64,000 nt of DNA from an uncultured Candidatus Binatia bacterium (GTDB lineage Bacteria > Desulfobacterota > Binatia > UBA9968 > JAJDTQ01). Shown one piece after another: positions 38,334 through 44,205 of this stretch. The translations under genes and the position numbers were made by a program. The stretch lies in contig OZ244070.1 of NCBI GenBank assembly GCA_965215605.1, positions 96,001-160,000 of the forward strand. Reading direction: 5' to 3'. Under the pieces are notes generated by a model. It made no database searches, was not told the origin of the DNA, and worked only from the letters and a program-made list of their open reading frames with translations. Position 1 is the first letter of the stretch; each line of letters opens with the position of its first letter.

Positions 38334-39626
38334 ATGACGGACTACCCCATCCTCACCATCGATTCCCTGATTCACGGCCCCTGGGGGCTCGGGCGGGACC
38401 AGGGCAAGGTGGTCCTGGTCCCCATGACGGCACCGGGCGACCAGGTGTCGGCGGAAGTGGTGGAGGAGCACAAGCGGCACTCGGTGGCCCGGACGGTGTC
38501 GCTCCTGCGCCCGTCGCCCGTACGCCGGGAACCGCCCTGCCCCTACGCCGGGACCTGCGGCGGCTGCGCATGGCAGCAGGTGTCCTACGAGGCGCAACTC
38601 CACGCCAAGCAGCAAAACGTCGCCGACGCCCTGGCCCGGGTCGGGGGCATCAGCGGCTTCGATCCCCTGCCCATCCTGCCCGCGTCGCAGGAGTTCCACT
38701 ACCGGCGGCGCATCGCTCTCCAGGTCGACGACCGCCGCAGGCTCGGGTTCCGCCGCGCGTTTTCGCGGGAGTTGGTGGAGGTGGACCATTGCCTCATCGC
38801 CGACCCGGACGCGGACCGCGGCATTCCGCTGGCGGCCGAATGGGTCGCACGGCTGGAAACCGAAGTCACGAGAGTCGAGATACTGAGCGGCGACCGCCCG
38901 GGCGAGGTGGTCCTGTCGGCCACCGCCCGCCACCGGCCGGGCGGCGCCGACGAACGTGCCTGCGAGGCGTCCGTAGCCGGCCCGGTGACGGGAATCGTCA
39001 TGGCGGGCCAAGGCTGGCGCCGGCAGTGGGGCGACACCACCGTCTCCTTCGTGGTGGACGGCGATCTGACATTGCGGCACGACGCCGGCACCTTCGGACA
39101 GGTCAACCCGGCGGGCAACCGGAAGCTGGTGGACGAGCTGCTTTCATGGGGCGCGTGGGGCGCGGAGGACAGCGTCCTGGAGCTCTACGCCGGCGCCGGC
39201 AACCTGACGCTTCCCGTGGCGCGCCGGGTCCAGCGGGTGATGGCGGTGGAAGGCCGCCGGCGACTTGTCGAGAACGGCAGGCGCAACGTCGCGGACAACG
39301 GTATCCGCAACATACGGTGGCGGGGGCAGGATGCCCTGGCGGCGGTGGAGGATTTCATCCGCCGCGGGCGCCGCTTCAACACCCTGGTACTCAATCCTCC
39401 CCGGGCCGGGGCCAAGGTGCTGGCCCCTAAACTGGCCGCGCTGGGGGCGGAAAGAATCCTTTACGTCTCGTGCGATCCGGCGACGCTGGCGCGGGACCTT
39501 CGTCAGATTACCGCCACGGGCTACACCCTGCGCCGGGTCCGCCCGGTGGATCTCTTTCCGCAGACCTTCCACGTCGAAACGTTGGCCGAACTGATCGCTT
39601 CCAAGCCGTCCGACCCGTCCACGTAG
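38334..39626 (+). CDS. rlmD: 23S rRNA (uracil-C5)-methyltransferase, TRAM + [4Fe-4S]
   Basis: CPYAGTCGGC, FGQVN, ELYAGAGN, NPPRAG, YVSCDPATLARD, DLFPQTFHVE. Confidence 0.88.
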   Translation: MTDYPILTIDSLIHGPWGLGRDQGKVVLVPMTAPGDQVSAEVVEEHKRHSVARTVSLLRPSPVRREPPCPYAGTCGGCAWQQVSYEAQLHAKQQNVADALARVGGISGFDPLPILPASQEFHYRRRIALQVDDRRRLGFRRAFSRELVEVDHCLIADPDADRGIPLAAEWVARLETEVTRVEILSGDRPGEVVLSATARHRPGGADERACEASVAGPVTGIVMAGQGWRRQWGDTTVSFVVDGDLTLRHDAGTFGQVNPAGNRKLVDELLSWGAWGAEDSVLELYAGAGNLTLPVARRVQRVMAVEGRRRLVENGRRNVADNGIRNIRWRGQDALAAVEDFIRRGRRFNTLVLNPPRAGAKVLAPKLAALGAERILYVSCDPATLARDLRQITATGYTLRRVRPVDLFPQTFHVETLAELIASKPSDPST

Positions 39627-39773
39627 CTGAACGAATGAGCCGTTTTTCGGGGGGTTACGGTTTGTATGTACATCTCTACTTGAAAGGAAATCGTGGCCGG
39701 GACGCGCCGTTACCCAAACTTCAGGGTTGAGTTGCGGACTCCAACTGGTGTAGAGTGTGCCGGGGAGGAAGAA

Positions 39774-40019
39774 ATGACCCAGCCGAAGAAAAGGGTAACT
39801 CCGAAGGTCACCATCATCGACAGCAACGGCGCCAGCCAGACGATCAACTACCTGCTCGAAGACCGGGACGAGCTCGAATGGCTGATGGCGGTGGGACGGA
39901 ACAAGAACGGTGACATCTTCTTTTACGACACCGGCGGCGACATTCTCCATGATCTCGGAGCGCTGGAGTACGTAAAGGAGCGGATTCTCAGGGACTACTT
40001 CGGCGAAATGGACGAGTAA
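39774..40019 (+). CDS. Small acidic hypothetical protein (81 aa)
   Basis: SD GGGGAGG, ATG at 39774, plausible codon usage. Confidence 0.65.
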   Translation: MTQPKKRVTPKVTIIDSNGASQTINYLLEDRDELEWLMAVGRNKNGDIFFYDTGGDILHDLGALEYVKERILRDYFGEMDE

Positions 40020-40047
40020 CCACTCCTGACGGCGGTGGCGGCGGGGC

Positions 40048-41412
40048 TCAGCGGTCCGGCTTCGCGGAACCCTGAAGACGCATCCACAGGAAGGCCGCGG
40101 CCGCCACGACCATCACCGCACTGAGATACTGCCCCCGGGACAGTCCCAGCGCCAGCCCCAGATGGGCGTCGGGTTCACGGAAGAACTCCACCATGAACCG
40201 GACGGCGCCGTAGCCGCCGATGAACGCCCAGGTCACGACGCCGTGTGCCCGCACCCGCGTTCCCAACCACAACAGCAGCGCCAGTAGAACCGCCCCCTCG
40301 AGAAACGCCTCGTAGAGCTGGGAGGGATGGCGCGGCAAGGGACCGCCGCCGGGAAAGACCATCGCCCACGGCACCTCCGTGGCGCGGCCGTACAACTCCC
40401 CGTTGATGAAGTTGCCGAGCCGGCCGAGTCCCAGGCCAAGGGGCGCGGCGGCGATGATGCAGTCCGCCGCGGGATAGAACGGCAAACCCTGCTTGCGCAC
40501 GTACCACCATCCCGCGAGCAGCGCCCCCAGCATGCCGCCGTGAAAGGACATGCCGCCGTGCCAAAAGGCGAAGATCTGTGACGGAGAGGCCAGATAATAC
40601 GAGAGATTATAGAAGATCACGTAGCCCAACCGGCCGCCCAGAACCACGCCGATGGCCACGTAGCTGATGAGCTCCACCAGTTGCTCGCTGCCGAGAGCGA
40701 GGCCTCTCCGGCGGGCCAGCCACAGGGCAATGAAATAGCCGCCGACGAACCCGAACAGGTACATGAGGCCGTACCACCGCACCGACAGCGGCCCGACCCG
40801 GAACGCCACGGGGTCGATGCGGGGAAAGGACCACGGCGCCGCCTCCACGGCTCCCCTGTCCACGACGGCCGTGCTCTCGATCTTCCCGTCCCCGAGCAGC
40901 GCGGCCACCAGCTCGCGCACGTCGTCCTTGTACCAGTCCTTGTATCCGATGGCCTTGGCGATGACCTCGCCCTTGCGTCCGATCAGCACGGACACCGGCA
41001 GCCGCATCACTCCGTACTGCTCGGCGATGTCGGCCTGTCTGTCCAGCAGCATCGGATAGGTCAGCTTCTGTTCGTCCGCGAACGCCCGCACCAGGTCTGG
41101 GGACTCCATGAAGTTCACCGCCACCACCTCCAGCCCCTTGCCGCGGAACTCCTGGTAGAGCCGCTCCATGGCCGGCATCTCCAGACGGCAGGGAGGGCAC
41201 CACGTCGCCCAGAAGTTCAGCAGCACCAGCTTGCCCCGGAAGGACGCGGCGTCGACACGGTTTCCGGCCGCGTCCTCGGTGGTGAAGCCGGGTGATTCGA
41301 CGAAGCCTTCCTGCACGAGGAAGCCGAGCTTCTTCAGGCGATCGTCCGCCGCCGCGCCCACGACCGCCGGGCAAAGCGCGATGAGAAGCAATGCGAGCAG
41401 ACAGCGTTTCAT
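40048..41412 (-). CDS. lgt: Fusion: signal peptide + TlpA-like thioredoxin domain + prolipoprotein diacylglyceryl transferase
   Basis: LNFWATWCPPC then PRIDPVAF..VRWYG, GGMSFHGG, GRLGNFINGELYGR, RHPSQLYE, EFFREPD in one ORF. Confidence 0.9.
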   Translation of the reverse strand: MKRCLLALLLIALCPAVVGAAADDRLKKLGFLVQEGFVESPGFTTEDAAGNRVDAASFRGKLVLLNFWATWCPPCRLEMPAMERLYQEFRGKGLEVVAVNFMESPDLVRAFADEQKLTYPMLLDRQADIAEQYGVMRLPVSVLIGRKGEVIAKAIGYKDWYKDDVRELVAALLGDGKIESTAVVDRGAVEAAPWSFPRIDPVAFRVGPLSVRWYGLMYLFGFVGGYFIALWLARRRGLALGSEQLVELISYVAIGVVLGGRLGYVIFYNLSYYLASPSQIFAFWHGGMSFHGGMLGALLAGWWYVRKQGLPFYPAADCIIAAAPLGLGLGRLGNFINGELYGRATEVPWAMVFPGGGPLPRHPSQLYEAFLEGAVLLALLLWLGTRVRAHGVVTWAFIGGYGAVRFMVEFFREPDAHLGLALGLSRGQYLSAVMVVAAAAFLWMRLQGSAKPDR

Positions 41413-41422
41413 GACCGTATGG

Positions 41423-42469
41423 CTATGGGGCGGAGCGGCCCGGCCCCAGGGCGAGCCCCCCGTCGCCGCCCCCGCTCGCGGCGTTGGCGGCGTCGTCCTC
41501 GGCGATGAGCCTGCAGGCCACCAGCACCAGTATCGGGACGATGTACATGTGGCCGCTGACCCACATGATGCCGCCGCCGAGGGCCTGGTCCTGGACCGGG
41601 CTCAATTTCTCGATCACCGGAACGGCCGCGTAGAACGGATACAGAACGCGCTCGGGCAGGGCGATGGCCATGCCGAGCAGCGTGTTCTGAAGGGTCGCAG
41701 CCAGCAGGTACACGATTCTCCACCCCAACGGGCGCATGGGGCGGAACAGCGGCGCGGCGTTGACGACGGGCCACCAGAAGAGCACGGCCGTGCCGAAGAA
41801 CAGCCAGTGCTCCAGGTCGTGCAGCCACCAATACTCCAGCGCGGCCTGGTACAGCGCGGGGTGGTGCCAAGCCCACAGGTTCGCCACGTAGAGGGCCCAG
41901 GCTACCGGCATGGAGGTCAACACGGACAGCGCGGACCGGAGCGGAGCGCCGTCGCGGAACAGCGCGGCGAAGCGCTCCCGGATCGCGGCGGGGAGGCCCC
42001 AGACCACGGCGGCAAAGGGGTTGGCCAGGAGGATCCCCAGCGGCGCCACCATCAGCAGCAGGATGTGCTGCACCATGTGCATGCTGAGCCGCTCCGAGGC
42101 CAGACGGTCCACCGGAGAGACCAGCGCTGTCAGGAGGGCGGCGATGCCGCCGAGGTAGAGAGCCAGACCGGACAGGGTGGCGGCGCCATCGGCCTGTCTG
42201 CGGAGCCGGCGCCACCCGGTGAGATAGACGGCCGCGGCCAGCGCCAGTGCCAGAAGAATGTCCGCGCGGAAGTTCCACGGGATCATCCCGAACACCAAGA
42301 CCAGTGCGTCGAACGGCAACGGCTCGTGCGGTGAGCCGCCGTGACCGTAGAGTGCCCCCGGCCACCACCACGCCGCCAGCGTCAGGCCGGCGGTGTTCGC
42401 CGCGGACCGGAGCCGCGGCCTCGGGCTTCTCTTCCCGTCCGCCAGACGGCACCGGCCGCCGGGTCTCAA
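41423..42469 (-). CDS. Cytochrome c oxidase assembly protein, Caa3_CtaG family; start uncertain
   Basis: SMHMVQHILL, WAWHHPALY, HDLEH, FWWPV, DQALGGGIMW. Confidence 0.85.
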   Translation of the reverse strand: MRPGGRCRLADGKRSPRPRLRSAANTAGLTLAAWWWPGALYGHGGSPHEPLPFDALVLVFGMIPWNFRADILLALALAAAVYLTGWRRLRRQADGAATLSGLALYLGGIAALLTALVSPVDRLASERLSMHMVQHILLLMVAPLGILLANPFAAVVWGLPAAIRERFAALFRDGAPLRSALSVLTSMPVAWALYVANLWAWHHPALYQAALEYWWLHDLEHWLFFGTAVLFWWPVVNAAPLFRPMRPLGWRIVYLLAATLQNTLLGMAIALPERVLYPFYAAVPVIEKLSPVQDQALGGGIMWVSGHMYIVPILVLVACRLIAEDDAANAASGGGDGGLALGPGRSAP

Positions 42470-42831
42470 GACACCCGCCACAGCATGAACCCCCAGGAGG
42501 GCAGCAGCGCCACGGCGCCGAGGAACCAGTAGACGGCCCCCGGGACTGTCGCCGGCCGCGCCTTGAGCCGTCTCACGCAGAACTCCGTGACAATGACGCC
42601 CAGCAACCCGCTGGCGGTCGAAAGCGCGAGCAGTGCCTTCATGCCCTTGTCCGGATTCTCTCCCGACAAACCGCCCAGCAACACCATCAGGGCGATGATC
42701 CAGGCCGGCGCCGTGGCCGCGAGGCCCACCATCCAGTAGCGCTCGGGCTTGCCGAGACGATCCCGCAGACAGGCCGACGCCAGCGCTCCCGCCAGCACGC
42801 CGATCACTCCGATCCAGATGGATAGCGTCAC
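42466..42831 (-). CDS. Small four-TM membrane protein
   Basis: GTG start after purine-rich SD; hydrophobic; stop overlaps next gene. Confidence 0.6.
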   Translation of the reverse strand: MTLSIWIGVIGVLAGALASACLRDRLGKPERYWMVGLAATAPAWIIALMVLLGGLSGENPDKGMKALLALSTASGLLGVIVTEFCVRRLKARPATVPGAVYWFLGAVALLPSWGFMLWRVS

Positions 42832-42863
42832 TCCCCTGCTCCTTCTCCGGCGGCGTCCGAACG

Positions 42864-42889
42864 CGGGCGGGTTTGAAACCCGCCCCTGC
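42864..42889 (-). repeat. GTAG-type REP-like palindrome, copy 2 (GCAG variant)
   Basis: Reverse strand GCAGGGGCGGGTTTCAAACCCGCCCG. Confidence 0.75.
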
Positions 42890-42990
42890 ACGGAAATCTA
42901 ACAGCCGGGACCGTGACTTGAAAGCGCGCCCCGGGCCTGGGCTTGCCGGTGGCGCCCACTACGCGTAAGACGGGAGCATCGAGCCCCGAC

Positions 42991-44205
42991 ATGCGCTTTT
43001 CCGTTTCCTCCCTGTTCGACCTGGGCGAGCTTCCCGCGGAGCTTCGCCGCTCGCTGAGCCTCGTCTACGCCTCCAGCGTGCTGGCGATCATGGGGGTGAA
43101 CCTCATCCAACCGGTGCTGCCGGCGATGATCGCGCCGTTCGGCATCACCGACGCCGACGTCGGGCTGGTGATCGCGGTCTACACCGCTCCCGCCATCCTG
43201 CTGGCGCCGCTCCTGGGAATCGCGGCCGACCGCTGCGGCCGGCGGCCGCTCCTGGCGGGAGGATTGATCCTGTTCGGCGCGGCCGGCACCGCCGTGGCCT
43301 TCGCCCCGGACTTCCGCTGGGTGCTGGCGCTGCGGGCGGTGCAGGGCATCGGCTTCAGCGCCGTCATCCCGCTCACCATCGTGCTTATCGGCGACCTGCT
43401 GGAGGAGCGCCGGGAGGTATCCGGCCAGGGCATGAAGGTCTTCATCGACCGGATCGGCGAGCTGGTGCTGCCGCCCCTCGGCGGCGCCCTTGCCCTGGTC
43501 GGCTGGCGCTGGCCGTTCCTGTCCTACGCGGCCGCCGTTCCCCTGGGGTTGCTGGTGCTCCGTTGGATGCCCGAGACCCGTGGAACCAGCTCCGCTTCGC
43601 TGGGGCGCTACCTCAGGGACGTGGCCCGGGTGGCCAGGAACCCGCGGCTGCTGCTGGCCTTCGCCGCCGGCTTCCTGCGCTTCTTCCTGGACTACGCGTT
43701 CTTCACCTATCTGCCGCTGTTCGTGGTCCGGACCCACGGCCTCACCACCGCCGGGGCGGGGCTGCTGCGGTCCCTGCACGCGCTGGGCGCCATGGTCACT
43801 TCCAGCCAGGCCGGGCGCCTGGCGGGCTCGTGGGACAAGGGGACCCTGGTCCTCGGCGCCTTCATCGTGAGCGGGCTCGCCCTCCTGGCGGTCCCCTTCA
43901 CTCCGGACATGGCAACCCTGGCTCCGGTGCTGCTGTTCTATGGAGTGGCCAACGGAATCATCTCGCCGATGCAGAAGAGCCTGTTGACCCAGAACGCCCC
44001 GCTGGAGCTGCGTGGCGGCGTCATCTCCCTGGACCGGCTGAGCCAGCAGATCGCCAAGACCGCCGGGGTGTCCGGCATCGGCCTGATGCTGGGGGTGGCG
44101 GAGATATCCACGCTCTTCTGGATCATGGCGGTGCTGTCGTTCGTGAGCGTCGGGCTGATGGCGCCCCTGGCCTGGAGCTCCAGGGACCGGGCGCTAGCGC
44201 CTTGA
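42991..44205 (+). CDS. MFS transporter (DHA1-like)
   Basis: GIAADRCGRRP, LRAVQGIG, GWRWPF. Confidence 0.9.
   Translation: MRFSVSSLFDLGELPAELRRSLSLVYASSVLAIMGVNLIQPVLPAMIAPFGITDADVGLVIAVYTAPAILLAPLLGIAADRCGRRPLLAGGLILFGAAGTAVAFAPDFRWVLALRAVQGIGFSAVIPLTIVLIGDLLEERREVSGQGMKVFIDRIGELVLPPLGGALALVGWRWPFLSYAAAVPLGLLVLRWMPETRGTSSASLGRYLRDVARVARNPRLLLAFAAGFLRFFLDYAFFTYLPLFVVRTHGLTTAGAGLLRSLHALGAMVTSSQAGRLAGSWDKGTLVLGAFIVSGLALLAVPFTPDMATLAPVLLFYGVANGIISPMQKSLLTQNAPLELRGGVISLDRLSQQIAKTAGVSGIGLMLGVAEISTLFWIMAVLSFVSVGLMAPLAWSSRDRALAP

What the first reader, a model, noticed from the sequence alone, without database searches (positions are those of the whole stretch)
40048..41412. TlpA thioredoxin fused to prolipoprotein diacylglyceryl transferase
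Seen: one ORF with signal peptide, WCPPC thioredoxin domain, short linker and a full Lgt with intact SFHGG and GRxGNFxNGE motifs; no Met at the junction. Known: Lgt modifies the free thiol of the lipobox Cys and its N-terminus faces the periplasm, so the topology is compatible. Inference: a dedicated reductase keeps substrate cysteines reduced for lipidation, a redox-coupled lipoprotein maturation step I do not know to be described.
Basis: partly seen in the sequence, partly recalled or inferred. Interest (0 to 1): 0.72.

Follow-up and report, generated by a model that had tools for sequence, protein, structure and literature searches.

The report
Periplasmic thioredoxin fused to Lgt
A thiol-reducing enzyme domain is fused to the cell's only lipoprotein-lipidating enzyme, a fusion that arose about three separate times in one bacterial genus, so the two activities may work together at the membrane.

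Summary
Window 40048-41412 (-) is one 454-aa ORF: signal peptide, TlpA/ResA-type thioredoxin domain (WCPPC), a flexible linker of about 18 residues, and a complete Lgt with all signature residues. It is the genome's only Lgt.

The fusion is not an artefact. 8 of 28 genomes of the genus carry it, and contigs from two studies bridge the junction. The other 19 scorable genomes have tlpA and lgt as neighbours. There TlpA ends in its own transmembrane anchor.

Three different in-frame deletions removed that anchor, the stop codon and part or all of the spacer. A flank-gene tree needs at least 3 changes and rejects a single fused clade.

The reductase lies in a conserved operon mem-ctaG-tlpA-lgt. 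In the sister family it stays near ctaG while lgt lies elsewhere. So its ancestral role is more likely copper-centre and oxidase assembly than lipobox reduction.

Some link to Lgt remains plausible. The fusion recurred, and TlpA genes sit beside LGT-family genes in Chloroflexota (11 of 11 in one divergent clade) and in one Actinomycetota genome.

No other Redoxin-then-LGT fusion turned up outside the genus, and no paper describing one was found.

The parts
40048..41412 (-). Whole fused ORF, 454 aa plus stop: signal peptide, TlpA-type thioredoxin, linker, Lgt
41350..41412 (-). Residues 1-21, N-terminal export signal (MKR, hydrophobic core, VGA/A). Cleavage is inferred, not tested. The Cys in ALCP is not conserved in relatives, so this is not a lipobox.
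   Evidence: hydropathy; N-termini of 20 loci
40909..41292 (-). Residues 41-168, thioredoxin-fold Redoxin/AhpC-TSA domain. Best solved relatives are ResA and TlpA.
   Evidence: AF2 pLDDT above 90
41188..41199 (-). Residues 72-75, the CPPC redox pair within WCPPC. W, both Cys and the second Pro are invariant in the 50-row alignment A1; the first Pro is conserved in at least 90%.
40834..40887 (-). Residues 176-193, flexible linker GDGKIESTAVVDRGAVEAAP. Its 3' part aligns with the former tlpA-lgt spacer of split genomes. It contains an in-frame GTG (V189) after AGGGGAG.
   Evidence: pLDDT below 50 for residues 176-189
40051..40833 (-). Residues 194-454, complete Lgt, starting WSFPRIDP as does the stand-alone Lgt (MWSFP...) of split relatives
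40387..40425 (-). Residues 330-342, Lgt signature GRLGNFINGELYG (E. coli G142-G154)
41423..42481 (-). Upstream gene of the same operon: Caa3_CtaG-type cytochrome oxidase assembly factor. Its stop is 11 nt before the fusion's ATG. It is the only CtaG in the genome.
42466..42891 (-). First gene of the cluster: 141-aa membrane protein without a Pfam family, always upstream of ctaG

Best explanation
Shown. This is a genuine natural fusion protein. An exported TlpA/ResA-type thiol-disulfide reductase domain (CxxC = C72/C75) is tied by a disordered linker of about 18 residues to the N-terminus of a complete Lgt. That Lgt is catalytically intact by sequence and is the genome's only one. The ancestral state in the genus is an operon mem141-ctaG-tlpA-lgt. 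There TlpA has a signal peptide and its own C-terminal transmembrane anchor with a basic tail, and lgt starts about 30 nt later with its own ribosome-binding site and GTG/ATG. Three different in-frame deletions removed the anchor, the tail, the stop codon and part or all of the spacer, so Lgt's first helix now anchors the reductase. Removing the anchor is what keeps the topology right: the thioredoxin stays outside and Lgt's N-terminus stays outside.

Inferred. Both activities are kept. Lgt does general lipoprotein lipidation. The TlpA domain is presumably re-reduced by the genome's single CcdA. It is the cell's non-CcmG periplasmic reductase, and its primary clients are probably the copper-site cysteines served by the co-transcribed CtaG (CoxB CuA site, Sco), as for Bradyrhizobium TlpA. 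On this reading the fusion is mainly an anchor swap made easy by gene order. The tether does place the CxxC site over Lgt's periplasmic head, so action on lipobox thiols is possible but not required.
For: Architecture and intact residues. Y214, H291, R331, N334, E339, G342, R405 and E409 correspond to E. coli Y26, H103, R143, N146, E151, G154, R239 and E243, whose roles are described in PMC4728403 (passages).

Sole Lgt: 1 match in G000, which is 97% complete.

Split-form anatomy: 13 of 13 split TlpAs read end in a hydrophobic helix plus an RRRGR-like tail.

Three distinct junctions. The WCPPC-to-RWYG distance is 444 nt in 5 genomes, 498 in G004 and 438 in G020. It is 548-597 nt in 16 split genomes, 756 in one and 914 in one.

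Independent origins: the flank-gene tree (27 rows, 1758 columns) needs 3 changes, starred branches force 3, and the AU test rejects one fused clade at p = 1e-43.

Operon: mem141-CtaG-TlpA-Lgt lie on one strand in 26 of 26 other genus loci.

Sister family: in 3 of 3 long loci the TlpA orthologue (47-49% identity) lies 1.2, 2.8 and 4.9 kb from mem-CtaG on the same strand, and the lgt matches found with this query lie on another contig or about 100 kb away.

Own genome: 1 COX1, 2 Sco with CxxxC, 1 CcdA and 1 CtaG. A separate CcmG-like Redoxin lies directly after CcmC/CcmF, leaving this TlpA for a non-cytochrome-c task.

Precedent: TlpA reduces the CuA site of subunit II and Sco (PMC9145763, passages).

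Copper context of TlpA plus LGT-like pairs elsewhere: L180 and L048.
Against: ctaG-tlpA is not next to the cox genes, which lie about 310 kb away.

A CtaG neighbour is not general for close TlpA homologues. Among the 79 genome-contig loci that hold a TlpA match, 0 have CtaG within 1 kb and 23 have CcdA.

A neutral anchor swap does not easily explain three independent fixations. Nor does it explain the TlpA-LGT-family adjacency in other phyla.

The domain scores below NCBIfam's cut-offs for TlpA (94.3 against 230) and ResA (123.1 against 170).

No expression or biochemical data exist. Signal-peptide cleavage, CcdA as donor and the clients are all inferred.
Confidence: 0.45

Rival explanations
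1. One reading: redox-coupled lipoprotein maturation. The tethered reductase keeps, or returns, the lipobox cysteine of exported prolipoproteins in the thiol state so that Lgt can form the thioether. It might also resolve wrong disulfides between the lipobox Cys and other cysteines.
For: At least three independent fusions, all of which preserve both domains and the CxxC.

The fusion has been kept across 28% protein divergence between G000 and G013.

tlpA and lgt are adjacent in all 27 scorable genus genomes.

Lgt's N terminus is strand beta1 of the periplasmic head, next to arm-1 and the front cleft (PMC4728403, passages). A flexible linker of about 18 residues therefore holds the CxxC near the substrate entry.

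The genome has 2 DsbA-like oxidases.

Independent TlpA-LGT-family adjacency: tlpA(lipobox LAGC)-ccdA-lgt in an Actinomycetota genome whose only LGT match is that gene; 11 of 11 members of a Chloroflexota LGT-like clade; G031 and G040 in the window's own order; and P0217, an Lgt-like N-terminal piece fused to TlpA.
Against: tlpA's older partner is ctaG, not lgt.

The TlpA-adjacent LGT-like proteins of Chloroflexota lack the Lgt signature (no R143 or N146 equivalents), so their link cannot be ordinary lipidation.

No need for a reductase is known for Lgt in model bacteria. My paper searches found nothing on it.

The fusion is rare: 0 of 400 other genomes sampled from the phylum.
Confidence: 0.33
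2. TlpA and LGT-fold membrane proteins form a two-part module for maturation of exported copper proteins (cupredoxins, CuA, their chaperones). The LGT-fold partner itself handles the cysteine-bearing segment. In this genus the canonical Lgt has taken that place.
For: G488 locus: CopA-like ATPase, TlpA, Lgt-like, Cupredoxin_1, YtkA-like.

G031 locus: DsbA, Cupredoxin_1, TlpA, Lgt-like, Cupredoxin_1.

Here CtaG lies directly upstream.

In B. subtilis, Lgt and LspA are among the twelve proteins needed for cytochrome caa3 (PMC9145763, passages).
Against: Only 2 of the 4 such loci whose neighbours I annotated show copper genes; L182 and L049 do not.

In this genome CoxB and both Sco proteins have no lipobox.

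Nothing shows what a signature-less LGT-like protein does.
Confidence: 0.12
3. The thioredoxin domain is the cytochrome c maturation reductase (CcmG/ResA).
For: The best solved relatives by sequence are ResA proteins, 88-95 bits. The best NCBIfam thioredoxin hit is the ResA subfamily.
Against: A separate Redoxin gene lies directly after CcmC/CcmF at C1:3861952-3862326. No ResB was found. TIGR00385 dsbE scores 48.8 against 123.15 and ResA 123.1 against 170.
Confidence: 0.05
4. Assembly or sequencing artefact, or a decaying pseudo-fusion.
For: None found. The only contigs with 0 differences may come from the source sample.
Against: 8 species genomes carry the fusion, with three junction types. 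A contig from a second study bridges the linker. 8 protein clusters come from several sources. All catalytic motifs are intact. It is the only lgt.
Confidence: 0.01

Closest known systems
Bradyrhizobium TlpA (PDB 1JFU, 4TXO)
   Same: Membrane-anchored periplasmic thioredoxin-fold reductase with a CxxC. It coexists with a separate CcmG and is tied to cytochrome oxidase biogenesis: it reduces the CuA site of CoxB and Sco (PMC9145763, passages). Sequence match 73-78 bits. Here it is co-transcribed with CtaG.
   Different: It scores below NCBIfam's TlpA equivalog cut-off, 94.3 against 230. The anchor is a C-terminal helix in split relatives and Lgt itself here. No test of substrates has been done.
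Bacillus ResA (PDB 1ST9, 4NMU)
   Same: Closest solved sequences, 88-95 bits. An extracytoplasmic CxxC reductase fed by CcdA.
   Different: ResA serves cytochrome c maturation with ResB/ResC. This genome has Ccm genes with their own Redoxin neighbour and no ResB.
E. coli Lgt (PDB 5AZB/5AZC)
   Same: 209 bits. The signature GRLGNFINGEL is identical, and all residues named essential are conserved. Seven long helices appear in the AF2 model.
   Different: It carries about 193 extra N-terminal residues (signal peptide, thioredoxin domain, linker).
Other natural Lgt fusions
   Same: Lgt tolerates added domains: Ank-LGT (P0256), TauE-LGT (P0261, P0298), LGT-Cu-oxidase_4 (5 of 10 scanned), and the M. 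tuberculosis C-terminal extension (PMC13251419, passages).
   Different: None of these carries a thioredoxin domain. None is known to me to have arisen repeatedly.
Thioredoxin-like domains fused to the enzyme they serve: Neisseria PilB/MsrAB N-terminal TlpA-like domain, VKOR-Trx, DsbD (recalled, not from a call)
   Same: An exported TlpA-like or Trx-like domain on one chain with a partner enzyme. NCBIfam PRK14018 (MsrA/MsrB) gives a weak hit to the domain here.
   Different: In those cases the partner has redox-active cysteines that the domain recycles. Lgt has no known catalytic cysteine, so any client here would be the substrate protein.
Chloroflexota TlpA plus LGT-like gene pair (found here)
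   Same: A TlpA gene immediately upstream of an LGT-family gene on the same strand, 11 of 11 in one clade.
   Different: These are separate genes. The LGT-like member lacks the GRxGNFxNxE signature, and these genomes hold other, canonical Lgt copies.

Membership tests
Lgt (PF01790 / TIGR00544) | Profile score above the curated cut-off | tested here: met
   PF01790 scores 254.8 bits against 24.9. TIGR00544 scores 234.9 against 118.9.
Lgt (PF01790 / TIGR00544) | Signature motif G142-RLGNFINGELWG-154 and residues Y26, H103, R143, N146, E151, G154, R239, E243 | tested here: met
   GRLGNFINGELYG at 330-342. Y214, H291, R331, N334, E339, G342, R405 and E409 were placed by alignment to 5azb. They are invariant in the 63-row alignment A2. 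Their roles are given in PMC4728403 passages.
Lgt (PF01790 / TIGR00544) | Seven transmembrane helices with a periplasmic N-terminus and head domain | tested here: met
   The AF2 model shows seven long helices between residues 213 and 448, pLDDT mostly above 90. Orientation is inferred from E. coli Lgt and from the export signal upstream.
Lgt (PF01790 / TIGR00544) | Transfers diacylglyceryl from phosphatidylglycerol to the lipobox Cys | not testable with these tools
   Inferred from its being the only LGT match in a 97%-complete genome.
TlpA/ResA-type extracytoplasmic thiol-disulfide oxidoreductase | Thioredoxin-fold Redoxin/AhpC-TSA domain above the cut-off | tested here: met
   AhpC-TSA 103.4 bits and Redoxin 94.5 bits, against cut-offs of 26 and 26.6. 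PDB ResA and TlpA matches.
TlpA/ResA-type extracytoplasmic thiol-disulfide oxidoreductase | CxxC active site and a conserved Leu-Pro loop (L138-P139; I take it, from recall, to be the cis-Pro loop of the thioredoxin fold) | tested here: met
   WCPPC at 71-75. W, both Cys and the second Pro are invariant in A1, the first Pro is conserved in at least 90%, and L114/P115 of A1 (residues 138-139) are invariant.
TlpA/ResA-type extracytoplasmic thiol-disulfide oxidoreductase | Exported and membrane-tethered | tested here: met
   N-terminal signal-like segment. Split relatives carry a C-terminal TM anchor. Actual export was not tested.
TlpA/ResA-type extracytoplasmic thiol-disulfide oxidoreductase | Equivalog-level identity with TlpA (NF047696) or the ResA subfamily (NF002854) | tested here: not met
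   94.3 against 230 and 123.1 against 170. I file it under the broad family only.
CcmG/DsbE | TIGR00385 above the cut-off, encoded with ccm genes | tested here: not met
   48.8 against 123.15. Another Redoxin gene follows CcmF.
Gene fusion of neighbouring genes (Rosetta-stone type) | One uninterrupted frame here, two adjacent genes in relatives, junction traceable in DNA | tested here: met

The most novel reading that the evidence does not exclude
Periplasmic TlpA reductases and LGT-fold membrane proteins are functional partners across phyla. In this genus the partnership has been welded three times onto the cell's only Lgt, so protein lipidation, and possibly copper-protein maturation, is redox-coupled at the membrane surface. 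That step is absent from the textbook Lgt-Lsp-Lnt pathway.
Probability: 0.3. Interest if true: 0.8.

Novelty: new variant of a known kind. Interest (0 to 1): 0.58.

Why it matters
Lgt is essential, is a drug target, and is thought to need only a free thiol on its substrate. Nothing in the standard pathway guards that thiol in the oxidising periplasm. A natural reductase-Lgt fusion that has recurred offers a ready construct to test whether the redox state of the lipobox cysteine is ever limiting. The recurrence itself is a clean example of how topology constrains gene fusion: the anchor helix had to go each time. The side finding gives a second entry point. A signature-less LGT-like clade always lies next to TlpA in Chloroflexota, sometimes among copper genes. 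This hints that the LGT fold has a thiol-linked role beyond lipidation. If instead the domain only serves CtaG and oxidase assembly, the fusion is an evolutionary curiosity.

Tried and rejected
Complex prediction, Lgt part against TlpA part with my own alignments: score 0.00, no verdict. It is not used as evidence either way.

The protein-atlas search: the nearest clusters are all TlpA-only and score 0.80 or less. No lead.

RNA evidence: no RNA holder was listed, so nothing can be said on expression.

I make no claim about habitat.

The listing of cluster members gave no names.

Promoter and terminator scan of 39600-43200: 0 promoter-like sites. The one terminator-like site lies inside hyp108. 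Uninformative.

Idea that TlpA's N-terminal Cys is a lipobox: rejected. The Cys is replaced by Trp in 3 loci and absent in 1 of the 20 loci read, and the -1 residue is Leu.

Idea that Lgt sits in the cluster because CoxB or Sco are lipoproteins, as in Bacillus: rejected for this genome. I saw no lipobox in CoxB or in either Sco.

Idea of a CcmG role: rejected.

Search for the same architecture elsewhere:
- Word-based search with the thioredoxin part among proteins of 249-795 aa: 189 hits, 120 listed, and only the 8 genus clusters plus P0217 carry LGT.
- Representative search: in the top 150, no protein matches both halves. I Pfam-scanned 20 of the 150, the long or multi-stretch ones.
- 400 other genomes of the phylum: 0.

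These searches are capped or sampled, so rarity is shown, not absence. Supplementary files of the papers were not consulted.
Full report
OBSERVATION. Window 40048..41412 (-) is a single ATG-started ORF of 454 aa. Pfam places a Redoxin/AhpC-TSA thioredoxin-fold domain at residues 41-168 (E 1e-29 and 6.6e-27) and a full LGT domain at 201-443 (E 8.8e-76). NCBIfam's lgt equivalog is passed, 234.9 bits against a cut-off of 118.9. The ResA, TlpA and DsbE models are hit but stay below their cut-offs. WCPPC lies at 71-75.

By alignment to E. coli Lgt (5azb, 209 bits), the signature GRLGNFINGEL is identical. The counterparts of Y26, H103, R143, N146, E151, G154, R239 and E243 are all present. Their importance is stated in the passages I read of PMC4728403.

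The first 21 residues form the only hydrophobic segment before Lgt and look like a Sec signal. An AlphaFold2 model built on a 91-row alignment folds both domains with high confidence: mean pLDDT 89.4, seven long helices in the Lgt part. Residues 176-189 stay below pLDDT 50 and pTM is 0.69. The model therefore shows two well-folded bodies on a flexible tether.

NOT AN ARTEFACT, AND THE ONLY LGT. The window's genome (4.06 Mb, 8 contigs, 97% complete) has one LGT match, and it is this gene.

In runs X2 and X3 (one study, possibly the source sample) a 2103-nt contig covers 39977-41600 without a difference. In run X6 of a second study a 189-nt contig covers 40753-40941 with 3 differences and no gap, so it spans the linker. 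These are assembled contigs, not raw reads.

A search of 5.8 billion proteins listed 120 best hits. Of these, 8 clusters (72-94% identity, several sources) carry both domains, 111 are plain Lgt and 1 is a plain TlpA.

HOW IT AROSE. The family holds a single genus of 28 species genomes. Of these, 8 (including the window's) have the fused frame and 19 have tlpA and lgt as adjacent genes on one strand. One genome, 76% complete, has no match.

In the 13 split loci that I read, TlpA is a signal peptide, the thioredoxin domain, a linker, and then a hydrophobic helix followed by a basic tail (for example ...YGSAVVVGAVGLVLGGWVAFRIRRGRARGPVG). This is a C-terminally anchored periplasmic protein. lgt starts about 30 nt after the tlpA stop, behind its own GGAG-like site, with GTG or ATG followed by WSFP or WTFP.

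The fused forms lack the helix, the tail and the stop. Three different junctions exist:
- In G004 about 95 nt are missing, from the middle of the helix to just before the ribosome-binding site. Half a helix, the old Shine-Dalgarno site and the old GTG are now read as ...GPAVLVGAVERQEV-WSFP.
- In G020 the deletion runs from the linker to the start codon. The Lgt part begins WTFP, as in G020's split sisters.
- In the main clade of six genomes (junction read in G000, G014, G016, G022 and G013; for G043 only the uninterrupted 1-454 match) the helix, tail and stop are gone. The old spacer appears to be translated as the end of the linker, and the old start codon is lost.

The distance from WCPPC to RWYG is 444 nt in 5 genomes, 498 nt in G004 and 438 nt in G020. 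It is 548-597 nt in 16 split genomes, 756 nt in one and 914 nt in one. Two genomes failed my motif search.

I built a maximum-likelihood tree from seven flanking proteins, leaving TlpA and Lgt out (27 rows, 1758 columns). It puts the fused genomes in three places. Starred branches force 3 changes, none of 200 bootstrap trees has one origin, and an AU test rejects a single fused clade (p = 1e-43). I named the group after seeing a first quick tree, so the p-value is generous. The three junction sequences are independent evidence for the same conclusion.

Each deletion had to remove the anchor helix. With the helix left in, Lgt's N-terminus would be on the wrong side of the membrane.

CONTEXT. 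The gene order MFS<- ->mem141, ctaG, tlpA, lgt-> <-hyp108 holds in 26 of 26 other genus loci. In the window, ctaG (Caa3_CtaG, E 3.4e-55) stops 11 nt before the fusion's ATG.

In the sister family, all 3 loci on long contigs have the TlpA orthologue (47-49% identity) 1.2, 2.8 or 4.9 kb from mem-ctaG on the same strand. The lgt matches found with this query lie on another contig or about 100 kb away. TlpA's older companion is therefore ctaG, and lgt joined only in this genus.

The genome has one haem-copper oxidase, two Sco proteins with CxxxC, one CcdA-type DsbD_TM protein, one CtaG and two DsbA-like proteins. It uses Ccm genes for cytochrome c. A separate Redoxin gene lies right after CcmC/CcmF, and no ResB was found.

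This repeats the Bradyrhizobium pattern, with CcmG for cytochromes c and TlpA for the CuA site of subunit II and for Sco (PMC9145763, passages). CoxB and both Sco proteins have no lipobox here. The Bacillus reason for linking Lgt to oxidase assembly (same paper) therefore does not obviously apply.

DISTRIBUTION OF THE ARCHITECTURE.
- A word-based search with the thioredoxin part, restricted to proteins of 249-795 aa, gave 189 hits with 120 listed. Only the 8 genus clusters carry LGT, plus P0217. P0217 is a 293-aa protein in the opposite order: an Lgt-like N-terminal four-helix piece without the signature, then TlpA.
- A full HMMER pass over 1.84 billion representatives listed 150 proteins, and none matches both halves. 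I scanned 20 of these, the long or multi-stretch ones. They are tandem TlpAs, Ank-LGT, TauE-LGT, LGT-Cu-oxidase_4 or LGT with unassigned extensions.
- None of 400 other genomes sampled from the phylum has a match spanning both domains.
- Paper searches found no description of such a fusion or of redox control of the lipobox cysteine. I used the terms diacylglyceryl transferase + thioredoxin + fusion; lipobox cysteine + disulfide + DsbA; and TlpA + Lgt. I saw the listings and abstract openings, and passages of PMC12419801 and PMC13251419.

A WIDER TlpA-LGT LINK. Among the 80 best loci from one genome per species, 3 hold TlpA beside an LGT-family gene. The ranking may favour double matches, so 3 of 80 is not a frequency.
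- An Ardenticatenaceae MAG has tlpA and then an lgt-like gene 6 nt later.
- An Anaerolineae MAG has ccdA, tlpA, lgt-like, a second tlpA and cytochrome b.
- An Actinomycetota MAG has tlpA (with a lipobox, LAGC), ccdA and a canonical lgt that is its only LGT match.

In an even sample of 81 genomes of that Anaerolineae MAG's phylum (Chloroflexota; the MAG's own genome included), 30 had an Lgt-like match, and 12 of the 30 best loci hold a TlpA-family ORF within 1.5 kb. On a tree of 59 LGT-family sequences, 11 Chloroflexota rows form one well-supported clade. All 11 are preceded by tlpA, and all 11 lack the GRxGNFxNxE signature.

Two genomes of the window's own order, G031 and G040, also have TlpA next to a signature-poor Lgt-like gene.

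Of the 4 such loci whose neighbours I annotated, 2 lie among copper genes. G488 has a CopA-like ATPase, Cupredoxin_1 and a YtkA-like gene. G031 has DsbA and two Cupredoxin_1 genes.

Close TlpA homologues elsewhere usually sit with CcdA: 23 of the 79 loci that hold a TlpA match. None of the 79 sits with CtaG within 1 kb.

MECHANISM. What is shown: the architecture, its origin by anchor-removing deletions at least three times, its long retention with intact motifs, the operon with ctaG, and the absence of another Lgt.

What is inferred: the signal peptide sends the thioredoxin domain to the periplasm, and Lgt's first helix follows and anchors it. CcdA recharges the CxxC. Both activities work.

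In E. coli Lgt the N terminus is strand beta1 of the periplasmic head and is followed by arm-1, which with arm-2 frames the front cleft. The tether therefore keeps the CxxC within a few nanometres of where substrates enter.

I rank the readings as follows.
1. 0.45: an oxidase/copper-site reductase that has swapped its own anchor for Lgt.
3. 0.12: a broader TlpA plus LGT-fold module for copper-protein maturation.
4. 0.05: CcmG.
5. 0.01: artefact.

Readings 1 to 3 are not exclusive. The recurrence of the fusion is the main reason not to dismiss a functional link to Lgt. The ctaG synteny is the main reason not to call the reductase 'dedicated' to Lgt.

NOVELTY. Both domains are ordinary members of known families. 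The combination, its threefold origin and the topology rule behind it were not found in print by my searches. I class it as a new variant of a known kind.

LIMITS. No raw reads, no RNA, no biochemistry, and the lineage is unnamed. Complex prediction gave no verdict. Supplements of papers were not read.

Noticed in passing
G000:C1:3625864-3626253, 67547-67957, 1821760-1822143, 3387045-3387401, 1130717-1131127, 1603684-1604223 (all outside the window): Five of the 7 Redoxin matches and one of the 2 DsbA-like matches in the genome have a single in-frame TGA exactly at the redox-cysteine position (for example WUGKC, FVUPWC, TPGUT). These are candidate selenoproteins. Many TlpA-like hits in the related family f3 also carry one TGA.
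   Followed up: partly
L149-L156, L159, L160, L163, L072 (Chloroflexota loci): A clade of LGT-family proteins lacks the Lgt signature (R143 and N146 equivalents lost). Each of its 11 members is encoded directly after a TlpA gene. The two genomes checked (G443, G444) hold 4 LGT-family matches each.
   Followed up: partly
L180:2915-10285 and L048:7-4529: TlpA plus Lgt-like pairs lie among copper genes. L180 has a CopA-like P-type ATPase, Cupredoxin_1 and a YtkA-like gene. L048 has DsbA and two Cupredoxin_1 genes.
   Followed up: partly
window 39693-40019 (+): A 108-aa ORF convergent on lgt has no Pfam family but is 80-100% identical across the genus. In many genomes it is more conserved than Lgt or TlpA (for example 98.8% where Lgt is 82%).
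   Followed up: no
(Lgt part, residues 194-454): The genus's Lgt is 55-59% identical to the best-matching Lgt of other families in the phylum sample, but only 30-39% identical to Lgt of its own order's other families. It may have come in by transfer when it landed beside tlpA, or the relatives' copies may be fast-evolving. The sister family's copies read GRIGCH, with Cys at the N146 position.
   Followed up: partly
P0217 (293 aa, from a 2027-nt contig): Opposite-order fusion: an Lgt-like N-terminal four-helix segment without HGG or the signature motif, followed by a TlpA domain with WCPPC.
   Followed up: no
P0256, P0261, P0298, P0246, P0299, P0304, P0308, P0378: Other natural Lgt fusions among database representatives: ankyrin repeats-LGT, TauE-LGT and LGT-Cu-oxidase_4 (YfiH-like).
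   Followed up: no
G004 locus L027, linker region: The G004 fusion keeps the old lgt ribosome-binding site and GTG in frame inside the linker. Free Lgt might still be made alongside the fusion. In the window an in-frame GTG (V189) follows AGGGGAG.
   Followed up: no
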